Source: a virus. Taken from it: a stretch of 64,000 bases of DNA. Positions 27,463-28,135 of the stretch are shown piece by piece. The position numbers and the translations under genes were made by a program. Below the pieces are notes generated by a model that saw nothing but the letters and a program-made list of their open reading frames with translations, ran no database searches and was not told where the DNA came from. The stretch's first letter is position 1. The number at the start of each line of letters is the position of its first letter. The stretch lies in the IMG/VR virus record IMGVR_UViG_3300042894_005670. One strand, 5' to 3'.

Positions 27463-27485
27463 AAAAAAGGCACCGAAGTGCCTTT
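27463..27485 (-). terminator. Rho-independent terminator with cUUCGg loop
   Basis: AAAGGCAC-TTCG-GTGCCTTTTTT. Confidence 0.9.
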
Positions 27486-27702
27486 ATACTGTTTGATATA
27501 CTTCATCAAACTTATTCAACGCTAACTGTCTAGCTAACCATAACCTAAATTTAATTCTTGGTGATAATTCATTATTTTCTGTAACTATTTTAATTCTAGT
27601 AAGATTACGTCCTACACTATCATCAAATACAAAAATTTCATAATCTTCATCAAAGTCACTTTTAGGCGTAAGCGGTACGTCTTTTCGACGTGCTAGAATT
27701 AT
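27484..27702 (-). CDS. Start-less 72-codon frame; putative -1 frameshift extension of the upstream peptide
   Basis: IILARRKDVPLTPK...LSPRIKFRLWLARQLALNKFDEVYQTV; no ATG/GTG, only a TTG near its end; begins at A_AAA_AAA and ends at the terminator. Confidence 0.55.
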   Translation of the reverse strand: MILARRKDVPLTPKSDFDEDYEIFVFDDSVGRNLTRIKIVTENNELSPRIKFRLWLARQLALNKFDEVYQTV

Positions 27703-27836
27703 TTTTTTGCGTCTTTTTTATCGTCTTTCTTAGCTTCTGCTTTAGGAGCGTCTTTCTTTTCTTCTTTCTTTGCATCTGCTGCAAATGCGCTTACTGCAAA
27801 AAGTGCAGCAAATAAGGTTGCGAATAATTGTTTCAT
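27699..27836 (-). CDS. Secreted K/D/E/A-rich peptide (45 aa) with Sec signal
   Basis: Not in track: MKQLFATLFAALFAVSAFA|ADAKKEEKKDAPKAEAKKDDKKDAKK. Confidence 0.75.
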   Translation of the reverse strand: MKQLFATLFAALFAVSAFAADAKKEEKKDAPKAEAKKDDKKDAKK

Positions 27837-27849
27837 GATATTTCTTTAT

Positions 27850-27913
27850 AAAAAAATGCTCTCTAATCCTTACGGACTAAGTTAATATTTCGCAGAGCAA
27901 CTTAATATTAACT
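27850..27913 (-). ncRNA. Candidate structured leader RNA (pseudoknot plus U-tract)
   Basis: 10-bp P1, 6-bp pseudoknot P2 and GUAA-capped P3, followed by U7. Confidence 0.5.
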
Positions 27914-27927
27914 ATACTATTACTATT

Positions 27928-27954
27928 AACGCATGAGTAAACAAAAGGTTTACA
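27928..27954 (-). promoter_or_regulatory. ECF-sigma-type promoter
   Basis: TGTAAAC-N16-CGTT. Confidence 0.5.
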
Positions 27955-27970
27955 CAATAATTATTTATTT

Positions 27971-28135
27971 TTATCCACCACGACCACTTCTACGTACTAC
28001 AGTGGCATTACCAAATCCTTTACTTGGTTTGGTTGATGGTGGTTTAAACCCACCTTTTTGTGGAAATGGTTGTTTAGCCTTAGCTTCGTTAGCCATATTA
28101 ATAAATGGGTTTTTTGATTTTTTAGTCTCAGTCAT
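27971..28135 (-). CDS. Small basic K/G/P-rich protein (54 aa)
   Basis: Not in track: MTETKKSKNPFINMANEAKAK...GFGNATVVRRSGRGG; AAGGAG SD. Confidence 0.7.
   Translation of the reverse strand: MTETKKSKNPFINMANEAKAKQPFPQKGGFKPPSTKPSKGFGNATVVRRSGRGG

What the first reader, a model, noticed from the sequence alone, without database searches (positions are those of the whole stretch)
27850..27954. Pseudoknotted leader RNA with U-tract behind an ECF-type promoter
Seen on the minus strand: TGTAAAC-N16-CGTT, then AGUUAAUAUU-(AAGU UGCUCU GCGA)-AAUAUUAACU-UAGUCC GUAA GGAUUA-G-AGAGCA-U7, ending 13 nt before the secreted-peptide ATG. P1 is a perfect 10-bp stem, and its loop UGCUCU pairs with AGAGCA beyond a GNRA hairpin. 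Established: AAC-N16-CGT is the ECF sigma promoter signature. Inference: an attenuator, riboswitch or small RNA under a host envelope-stress sigma factor. I do not recognise the RNA family.
Basis: partly seen in the sequence, partly recalled or inferred. Interest (0 to 1): 0.75.

Follow-up and report, generated by a model that had tools for sequence, protein, structure and literature searches.

The report
Phage leader pseudoknot behind ECF-type promoter
This is the promoter and folded 5' leader of a small secreted-protein gene kept by a group of uncultured freshwater jumbo phages. The promoter looks like an ECF sigma-factor site, and the leader forms a clade-specific pseudoknot that is in no RNA family library and whose function is unknown.

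Summary
Taken alone, the window is weak evidence: the promoter pattern occurs as often by chance, and the fold z-score is -1.9. Relatives make the case.

- **Promoter.** GT[C/A]AAC-N16/17-CGTTA precedes homologous signal-peptide genes in about 100 distinct phage contigs, while the spacer varies freely.
- **Short leaders.** Most relatives have a 50-59 nt leader with a single 5' hairpin.
- **Long leaders.** One clade, including the window, has an 86-101 nt leader. Its five diverged lineages are consistent with a single origin on a neighbour-gene tree.
- **Two crossing helices.** Every long-leader lineage keeps P1 and a pairing between the P1 loop and a segment 20-26 nt upstream of the AUG. Each lineage uses different sequences (window: UGCUCU/AGAGCA). 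Shuffle tests give a combined p of about 5e-4 for each helix.
- **Optional parts.** P2 occurs in only three lineages. The U7 occurs only in the window's subclade, so an attenuator or small RNA ending there is not supported.

Rfam has no match. No phage-encoded sigma region 2 was found in a complete relative. A host ECF sigma is inferred, not shown.

My best guess is that the leader is a 5'-terminal protective or organising fold that leaves the ribosome site free.

The parts
27948..27954 (-). -35 box TGTAAAC (family consensus TGTCAAC)
   Evidence: Conserved in relatives. 6 of 7 bases identical to L022 although the flanks are 50-56% identical.
27932..27947 (-). 16-nt promoter spacer. In the window type it completes a GTAAAC/GTTTAC palindrome.
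   Evidence: The spacer is 56% identical to L022, and the palindrome is absent outside the window type. It is probably not a functional hairpin.
27927..27931 (-). -10 box CGTTA
   Evidence: Found at this spacing in about 100 distinct promoter-leader sequences picked by a motif-based scan. A few other relatives read CGTTG. 5 of 5 identical to L022.
27904..27913 (-). P1 5' arm
   Evidence: 10 perfect pairs with 27880-27889. It sits where the short leaders carry their single 5' hairpin.
27890..27903 (-). P1 loop: L1 AAGU (27900-27903), pseudoknot strand UGCUCU (27894-27899), L2 GCGA (27890-27893)
   Evidence: AAGUU and GCGA are shared with L039, and AAGUU also with L063.
27880..27889 (-). P1 3' arm
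   Evidence: The closing U-A becomes U-G in L006, L033, L034 and L038.
27864..27879 (-). P2 hairpin with a GNRA loop (27870-27873)
   Evidence: The loop GUAA becomes GCAA in L006 and L010. The second outer pair is an A-A mismatch in many close relatives. P2 is absent in L040 and L063.
27857..27862 (-). AGAGCA, 3' strand of the loop-to-downstream (pseudoknot) helix
   Evidence: 6 Watson-Crick pairs with 27894-27899. The equivalent helix uses different sequences in L031, L039, L040 and L063.
27850..27856 (-). U7 tract
   Evidence: Present only in the window and L022 subclade. Not called a terminator. It can pair weakly with the purine-rich ribosome site in the minimum-free-energy fold.
27837..27849 (-). 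A/U-rich ribosome-binding stretch with a weak AAAGAAA Shine-Dalgarno
   Evidence: Relatives have AAAGGAAA or GAGG at the same distance.
27699..27836 (-). 45-aa open reading frame: Sec-type signal peptide followed by a Lys/Glu/Asp/Ala-rich tail
   Evidence: The exact peptide is indexed in 50 blocks of the collection (19 contigs read). No Pfam family.

Best explanation
The stretch is the promoter and 95-nt 5' untranslated leader of a conserved phage gene for a small exported, charged protein.

Transcription is most likely started by an ECF-type sigma factor at GT[C/A]AAC-N16-CGTTA. That would put the RNA start a few bases after the CGTTA box.

In most related phages the mRNA then begins with one short hairpin, followed by about 15-35 nt of open A/U-rich ribosome-loading sequence. 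In the window's clade that hairpin (P1) has been elaborated. Its loop pairs with a 6-8 nt segment lying 20-26 nt upstream of the AUG. This gives an H-type pseudoknot, into which the window's sub-lineage has added a small hairpin (P2).

The extra ~45 nt are therefore all folded away, and the open ribosome site keeps its usual length.

I take the fold to be a 5'-terminal protective or organising domain. It would shield the 5' end from 5'-end-dependent decay while keeping the ribosome site accessible. It may also serve as a docking site for a regulator.

The U7 is part of the A/U-rich ribosome region of this sublineage, not a terminator.

**Shown:** the anatomy, conservation of the promoter boxes, helix-level compensatory change, and a distribution consistent with a single origin.

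**Inferred:** the sigma class, the transcription start, that the helices form at the same time, and the stabilising function.
For: **Promoter**
- The same two boxes at N16/17 precede the homologous gene in about 100 distinct promoter-leader sequences.
- Between the window and L022 the boxes are 6/7 and 5/5 identical. The spacer is 56%, the upstream intergenic DNA 50% and the upstream gene 65% identical.
- The motif is unique in the 64-kb window and occurs once in a complete 359.5-kb relative. It is therefore not the phage's general promoter type.
- AAC in the -35 box and CGT in the -10 box are the ECF hallmark (PMC5758882).

**Structure**
- P1 and the loop-to-downstream helix exist in five lineages with unrelated sequences.

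| Lineage | Loop strand / downstream strand |
|---|---|
| window | UGCUCU / AGAGCA |
| L031 | UUACUUCG / CGAAGUAA |
| L039 | UGUGUUC / GGACACA |
| L040 | ACGCCU / AGGCGU |
| L063 | AUGCGCU / AGCGUAU |

- Shuffle tests give p = 0.02-0.08 per lineage. The Fisher combined p is 5e-4 for the pseudoknot helix and 6e-4 for P1.
- The downstream strand starts 17-22 nt after P1 in all five lineages. It ends 20-26 nt before the AUG.
- In L031, L039 and L040 the long-range helix is part of the nested minimum-free-energy fold.
- All 12 long-leader rows fall on one side of a branch in the tree of the neighbouring 97-aa protein: support 92/62, 90% of bootstrap trees, 0 of 500 label shuffles as clustered.
- The 57-nt folded core is 97% identical between the window and L022. 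That is higher than the peptide gene (91%) and the ribosome stretch (80%).

**Function**
- Short leaders place a hairpin 7-14 nt after the C of CGT, with at least nine different stem sequences.
- 5'-terminal stem-loops are a known mRNA-stabilising device (Emory, Bouvet and Belasco 1992, as listed in PMC3997798).
Against: - There are no transcript data.
- If the start lies 6-8 nt after CGT, the window's P1 would be preceded by about 6-9 unpaired bases. That is more than an ideal protective 5' hairpin has.
- Only five independent lineages exist, and each shuffle test alone is weak.
- Automatic alignment and consensus folding could not register the helices.
- A covariance model built from the window type did not reach the diverged lineages. 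The covariation rests on my own segment-by-segment table.
- With P2 fully formed, only one base links it to AGAGCA, while the partner loop sits 10 pairs away. P1, full P2 and the pseudoknot helix together look strained unless the outer P2 pairs open. Many relatives do carry a mismatch there.
- The high identity of the leader between the window and L022 could reflect a recent cassette exchange rather than constraint.
- The stabilising role is an inference.
Confidence: 0.5

Rival explanations
1. Transcription attenuator, or an ECF-dependent small RNA. The UGCUCU/AGAGCA helix followed by U7 acts as an intrinsic terminator. Transcripts then stop 13 nt before the gene unless something prevents the helix.
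For: - In the window, a 6-bp helix abuts U7.
- A nested fold that uses this helix costs only 2 kcal/mol more than the minimum-free-energy fold.
- Some short leaders also have a hairpin directly followed by U4-6.
Against: - The U-tract is absent after the equivalent helix in L031, L039, L040 and L063.
- The terminator scan finds nothing on this strand between 27837 and 27970.
- The helix closes a 31-nt loop and has three G-C pairs.
- P1 does not compete with it by base pairing, so there is no obvious antiterminator.
Confidence: 0.08
2. Translational switch (riboswitch, thermosensor or bistable leader). P1 and an alternative pairing of its 5' arm with the ribosome site would toggle translation, with the long-range helix fixing one state.
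For: - In L039 and L063 the 5' arm region can pair with the Shine-Dalgarno/AUG region (p = 0.02 and 0.04).
- The nested minimum-free-energy folds of L031 and L039 include such pairs.
- In L040 the P1 3' arm has two possible partners.
Against: - The window itself has no such pairing (p about 1). The combined p is only 0.053.
- The long-range helix ends 20-26 nt before the AUG and never covers the Shine-Dalgarno.
- Few loop or junction bases are conserved across lineages, unlike a ligand pocket.
- No Rfam riboswitch match.
Confidence: 0.12
3. Protein-binding translational operator, working like the T4 gene 32 leader. A 5' pseudoknot would nucleate binding of a phage or host RNA-binding protein, which then spreads over the A/U-rich ribosome site.
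For: - The layout is the same: a 5' pseudoknot, then an unstructured A/U-rich stretch with UUAAA-like repeats over the ribosome site (T4 description in PMC3014915).
- GGAUUA is sequence-conserved in the three lineages that have P2.
- The phage is T4-related.
Against: - The product is an exported peptide, so it cannot autoregulate in the cytoplasm.
- No binding protein is known.
- The open stretch is only about 20 nt.
- Most relatives manage with a simple hairpin.
Confidence: 0.15
4. No specific function. The long leader would be a neutral insertion carried along in a recombining promoter-plus-gene cassette, and its helices would be chance in A/T-rich sequence.
For: - Each helix alone has p = 0.02-0.08.
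- Simple hairpins are common in shuffled A/T-rich leaders (57%).
- Similarity between the window and L022 breaks exactly at the promoter, as after recombination.
Against: - Two helices are each kept in five lineages, at the same places, with different sequences (combined p about 5e-4 each).
- The distribution is consistent with a single origin followed by divergence.
- The folded core is more conserved than the coding sequence.
Confidence: 0.1
5. This rival concerns the promoter only. The two boxes would be read by a phage-encoded factor, such as a very diverged sigma or an activator, rather than by a host ECF sigma.
For: - The motif is conserved within a phage group, and no bacterial copy was confirmed.
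- T4-type phages do reprogramme host polymerase.
Against: - No Sigma70 region 2 match in a 100%-complete 359.5-kb relative or in four partial ones.
- There is only one copy of the motif per genome, which is unlike a phage promoter class.
- The boxes and their spacing fit the ECF pattern.
Confidence: 0.25

Closest known systems
ECF sigma-factor promoters (for example Bacillus sigma-W/X/M, alphaproteobacterial EcfG)
   Same: AAC in the -35 box, CGT in the -10 box, 16-17 nt between them, and a spacer free to vary. The downstream gene encodes an exported protein.
   Different: It sits in a jumbo phage genome, once per genome. The cognate sigma and the host are unknown. The -35 box reads GTCAAC rather than GGAAC or TGAAAC.
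T4 / T2 / RB69 gene 32 mRNA leader pseudoknot (translational operator)
   Same: An H-type pseudoknot at the 5' side of a leader in a T4-related phage, followed by an unstructured A/U-rich ribosome-binding stretch.
   Different: No sequence or Rfam relation. The helices are longer, with an inserted hairpin. The product is a secreted peptide, not an RNA-binding autoregulator. The open stretch is shorter.
5'-terminal stabilising stem-loops (ompA, papA leaders)
   Same: A hairpin close to the predicted RNA start, followed by an open ribosome site. The hairpin is kept by compensatory change, not by sequence.
   Different: Here the hairpin loop also pairs downstream. The distance from the true 5' end is unknown. 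No half-life data.
PeSL promoter/stem-loop cassettes of T4-like phages
   Same: A promoter plus a stem-loop in front of a small accessory gene in a variable region. The similarity break at the promoter suggests cassette exchange.
   Different: PeSLs are sigma-70-like, repeated many times per genome, and their G/C-rich stem-loop terminates upstream transcription. This element is single-copy, ECF-like, and folds downstream of the promoter.
Small pseudoknot riboswitches (preQ1, SAM-II, fluoride, guanidine-III)
   Same: A compact H-type pseudoknot in a 5' leader near a ribosome site.
   Different: No Rfam match. The Shine-Dalgarno is not part of the pseudoknot. There is almost no conserved loop or junction sequence across lineages.

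Membership tests
ECF sigma-dependent promoter | AAC in the -35 box and CGT in the -10 box, 16-17 nt apart | tested here: met
   The same arrangement occurs in relatives. The hallmark is as stated in PMC5758882.
ECF sigma-dependent promoter | Boxes conserved while the spacer and flanks diverge | tested here: met
   boxes 6/7 and 5/5 identical, spacer 56%, upstream intergenic DNA 50%.
ECF sigma-dependent promoter | Transcription depends on a cognate ECF sigma, with a start a few bases after the -10 box | not testable with these tools
No Sigma70_r2 was found in phage relatives.
Intrinsic terminator / attenuator | A stable G/C-rich hairpin immediately followed by a U-tract | tested here: inconclusive
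   This holds only if the 6-bp long-range helix closing a 31-nt loop counts as the hairpin. P2 itself is 7 nt away from U7. The scan does not call it.
Intrinsic terminator / attenuator | U-tract conserved in homologues | tested here: not met
   Absent in L031, L039, L040 and L063.
H-type RNA pseudoknot | A hairpin loop pairs with a downstream strand (crossing helices) | tested here: met
   One search lists every pair in eight sequences from five lineages.
H-type RNA pseudoknot | Both helices supported by compensatory change | tested here: met
   Supported at the level of whole helices: Fisher p = 5e-4 and 6e-4, with a distribution consistent with a single origin. Column-wise counting was not possible.
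H-type RNA pseudoknot | Both helices form at the same time | not testable with these tools
   My reasoning from loop lengths suggests strain with a full P2. This needs chemical probing.
Any Rfam family (including riboswitches) | A match at the family's gathering score | tested here: not met
   best hits have E values of 3 to 7.4 and fall far below their cut-offs; no matches in five relatives.
T4 gene 32-type translational operator | A 5' pseudoknot followed by an unstructured A/U-rich ribosome site | tested here: met
   The layout is as described in PMC3014915. This is resemblance only.
T4 gene 32-type translational operator | The gene product (or a known protein) binds its own leader | tested here: not met
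   The product has a signal peptide and a 26-aa charged tail, so it is unlikely to act in the cytoplasm.
PeSL cassette | A sigma-70-like promoter, many copies per genome, and a stem-loop that terminates upstream transcription | tested here: not met
   The candidate -10 is 19-21 nt from any -35-like hexamer (my reading). One copy in the window by the covariance model and by the motif. PeSL features are from PMC2839356.
5'-terminal stabilising stem-loop | A hairpin within a few bases of the RNA 5' end, conserved as structure | tested here: inconclusive
   The hairpin starts 7-14 nt after the C of CGT in short leaders and 16-18 nt in long ones. The true start is unknown.

The most novel reading that the evidence does not exclude
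A group of freshwater jumbo phages wires one small exported protein to the host's envelope-stress (ECF) sigma factor. The gene would fire when the infected cell's envelope is disturbed, for example by a second phage. In the window's clade, the added pseudoknot would be a true regulatory sensor, binding a protein or ligand, that gates this response.
Probability: 0.12. Interest if true: 0.8.

Novelty: new member of a known kind. Interest (0 to 1): 0.5.

Why it matters
Structured leaders with comparative support are rare in phage genomes outside the T4 model genes. This one comes with five diverged natural variants that already act as compensatory mutants.

The conserved ECF-type promoter occurs once per jumbo-phage genome and always sits in front of an exported small protein. 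It hints that these phages may read a host stress signal. This can be tested directly once a host, or a surrogate polymerase plus sigma, is available.

If the fold only stabilises the message, the finding is an ordinary but well-documented new leader RNA.

Tried and rejected
**Searches that found nothing**
- Rfam scans of the window region and five relatives.
- DNA search of deposited phage genomes. The phage is only about 50% identical in DNA polymerase to Sinorhizobium phage Phosso.
- Repeat search in the window. The element is single-copy.

**Attempts to register the helices automatically**
- MAFFT alignments of the long leaders or of helix-bounded segments put the helices out of register.
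- RNAalifold on 49 short leaders gave no consensus for the same reason.
- A covariance model built from the window type found only near-identical copies, even with filters off.
- As a result I did not run the count of structure pairs. I replaced it with a coordinate-based pair table and shuffle tests.

**Hairpin counting**
- A simple hairpin count does not separate short leaders from shuffles (43 of 49 against 57%). The argument for that hairpin rests on its fixed position and its many different stem sequences.

**Looking for bacterial homologues and a host**
- The genome scan with the peptide confirmed nothing.
- The seemingly bacterial contig L017 carries a DnaB-like gene. Its relatives sit in assembled genomes of many unrelated phyla, so it is probably phage. 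I dropped the idea that the cassette was recently taken from a host.

**Other leads**
- More long-leader lineages. Two further scans of viral contigs added about 160 loci but no new type.
- Upstream small reading frames. There are 7 codons from TTG in the window, 13 in L039 (lost in L125 and L126), and 16 in L031. They are not conserved, so I rejected a leader peptide.

Full report
**What is in the window.** The window is A/T-rich (34% G+C), and nearly all of its larger open reading frames (45 of 49) lie on the minus strand. It encodes a T4-type DNA polymerase, a helicase and ribonucleotide reductase. The closest deposited phages are jumbo phages at about 50% polymerase identity. No deposited phage matches at the DNA level. 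The finding lies between a 54-aa gene (27971-28135) and a 45-aa gene (27699-27836). The 45-aa gene encodes a signal peptide plus a Lys/Glu/Asp/Ala-rich tail.

**The window alone is weak evidence.** The promoter pattern is no more frequent than chance. The minimum-free-energy fold contains P1 and P2 with z = -1.9. Rfam has no match. No terminator is called on this strand.

**Close relatives.** The exact peptide is indexed in many metagenome assemblies (50 blocks of the collection; 19 contigs read). Ten close relatives are 98% identical across the intergenic region. The few changes are informative:
- The closing U-A pair of P1 becomes U-G.
- The GNRA loop changes from GUAA to GCAA.
- The second outer pair of P2 is an A-A mismatch in about half of them, so the outer part of P2 is not under strong constraint.

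**The promoter.** Homologues of the peptide gene in other contigs, including other phage types, carry the same two boxes at the same spacing but with unrelated spacers. I scanned metagenome and viral contigs with the conserved 97-aa neighbour gene and obtained several hundred loci.
- About 100 distinct promoter-leader sequences carry a GT[C/A]AAC-like box, N16/17 and CGTTA in front of a 40-100 aa signal-peptide protein rich in Ala, Pro, Lys and Glu.
- A minority of relatives lack the promoter and couple the gene directly to the upstream gene.
- Between the window and L022 the boxes are 6/7 and 5/5 identical. The spacer is 56%, the upstream intergenic DNA 50% and the upstream gene 65% identical.
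- The motif is unique in the window and occurs once in a complete 359.5-kb relative, there in front of another small reading frame.
- That complete relative and four partial relatives have no Sigma70 region 2 match.

AAC in the -35 box and CGT in the -10 box are the ECF hallmark (PMC5758882). The promoter reading is therefore well supported as a conserved two-box site of ECF type. Which sigma reads it remains an inference. I found no confirmed bacterial copy. One contig that looked bacterial is probably phage DNA binned into bacterial genomes by mistake.

**The leader.** Most relatives have a 50-59 nt leader.
- It starts with one hairpin 7-14 nt after the C of CGT. At least nine different stem sequences occur, for example GUAGA/UCUAC, CACAG/CUGUG, AGACUU/AAGUCU and AGAUAA/UUAUCU.
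- The hairpin is followed by about 15-35 nt of A/U-rich sequence with AAAGGAAA before the AUG.

Long leaders of 86-101 nt occur in five lineages: the window type with L022, L031, L039/L125/L126, L040 and L063.
- In the tree of the 97-aa neighbour protein, all 12 long-leader rows lie on one side of a branch. Support is 92/62, it holds in 90% of bootstrap trees, and 0 of 500 label shuffles are as clustered.
- The topology is ((L040, L063), (L031, (L039, (window type with L022)))). The long leader thus seems to have arisen once and then diverged.

**Both helices are kept with different sequences.** A coordinate-based table shows P1 of 10, 8, 7, 7 and 4 pairs. The L063 helix extends with internal loops. 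The same table shows a helix between the P1 loop and a downstream segment of 6, 8, 7, 6 and 7 pairs. Sequences differ in every lineage.
- Shuffling the loop and the downstream region gives p = 0.02-0.08 per lineage and a Fisher combined p of 5e-4.
- The same test for P1 gives 6e-4.
- The downstream strand always starts 17-22 nt after P1 and ends 20-26 nt before the AUG.
- In L031, L039 and L040 the long-range helix is already part of the nested minimum-free-energy fold. In the window it costs 2 kcal/mol more than P1 plus P2.
- P2 exists only in the L031, L039 and window subclade, with GGAUUA conserved.
- The U-tract exists only in the window and L022 subclade.

**Consequences for the proposed mechanisms.**
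- *Attenuator or small RNA ending at U7.* This does not fit a family whose other members lack the U-tract.
- *Switch in which the P1 5' arm alternately covers the ribosome site.* This is not supported for the window (p about 1). Overall it is only marginal (Fisher p = 0.053).
- *Riboswitch pocket.* This is unlikely because almost no loop or junction base is conserved across lineages.

What is conserved is a folded 5' domain followed by an open A/U-rich ribosome site of roughly constant length. The extra 45 nt of the long leaders are all tucked into helices. That matches a 5'-terminal protective or organising structure, as known from ompA-type leaders (references listed in PMC3997798). It also resembles the T4 gene 32 operator in layout: a 5' pseudoknot, then an A/U-rich ribosome site (PMC3014915). 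However, the product here is exported and cannot be its own repressor.

The element is not a PeSL cassette. PeSLs are sigma-70-like, multi-copy, and carry a terminator stem-loop for upstream transcription (PMC2839356).

**Caveats.**
- I could obtain no transcript data.
- Automatic alignment, consensus folding and a covariance model failed to register or reach the diverged lineages. The covariation is at the level of whole helices, from my own table.
- With a fully formed P2, only one base links it to AGAGCA. Simultaneous formation of all three helices would need the weak outer P2 pairs to open. This is my inference from loop lengths.
- The 97% identity of the folded core between the window and L022 may partly reflect cassette exchange, because similarity breaks at the promoter.

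**Verdict.** This is a real, previously undescribed leader RNA with comparative support, sitting behind a conserved ECF-type promoter in uncultured freshwater jumbo phages. Its U-tract is incidental, and its function is still inferred.

Noticed in passing
window 27487-27702 (-): Directly after the peptide stop, a reading frame of about 71 codons in the -1 frame has no ATG, GTG or TTG start. It is conserved in L001, L012 and L017 and ends at a UUCG terminator hairpin (27466-27485). The window has an A_AAA_AAA heptamer at the stop. L012 and L017 keep the frame relation but read AAG AAG TAA, which is not slippery. All share the junction TAAT(A/T), so stop-start coupling on an ATT or ATA codon looks at least as likely as a programmed frameshift.
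   Followed up: partly
loci L037-L374, about 0.9-1.4 kb after the 97-aa gene: A family of small signal-peptide proteins (40-100 aa) rich in Ala, Pro, Lys and Glu, often with an MKLAKKK-like core, is conserved at one syntenic slot in hundreds of freshwater jumbo-phage contigs (up to 524 kb). There is no Pfam match and its function is unknown.
   Followed up: partly
L025-L027, gene at 2501-2641 (L027: 696-836): A near-identical short peptide gene sits immediately downstream of gene 32 in a different, T4-like phage. Its upstream region is unrelated, with no ECF-type boxes and a CCAGGG/CCCTGG stem.
   Followed up: no
window 27936-27953 (-): The -35 box and spacer form a GTAAAC-N5-GTTTAC palindrome. 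Its loop varies between C and U in close relatives, and the palindrome is absent from L022 and all other lineages.
   Followed up: yes
G001:C1:343595-343622 (locus L199): In a complete 359.5-kb relative, the only copy of the promoter motif lies in front of a different small reading frame (27-45 codons), far from the 97-aa gene. The promoter therefore seems able to move between genes.
   Followed up: partly
loci L200-L214; names attached to P0014 and P0043: Contigs carrying genes of this phage group are labelled in public assembled genomes as Bacteroidota, Chitinophagia, Polynucleobacter, Rickettsiales and even archaea. These labels look like binning errors and should not be used to infer the host.
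   Followed up: partly
window 27955-28135 against L022 2199-2381: Similarity between the window and L022 drops from 91-97% (leader and peptide gene) to 50-65% exactly at the promoter. The neighbouring 139-aa gene is only 69% identical even to the closest relative, L001. This region is a mosaic, probably shaped by recombination at the promoter.
   Followed up: partly
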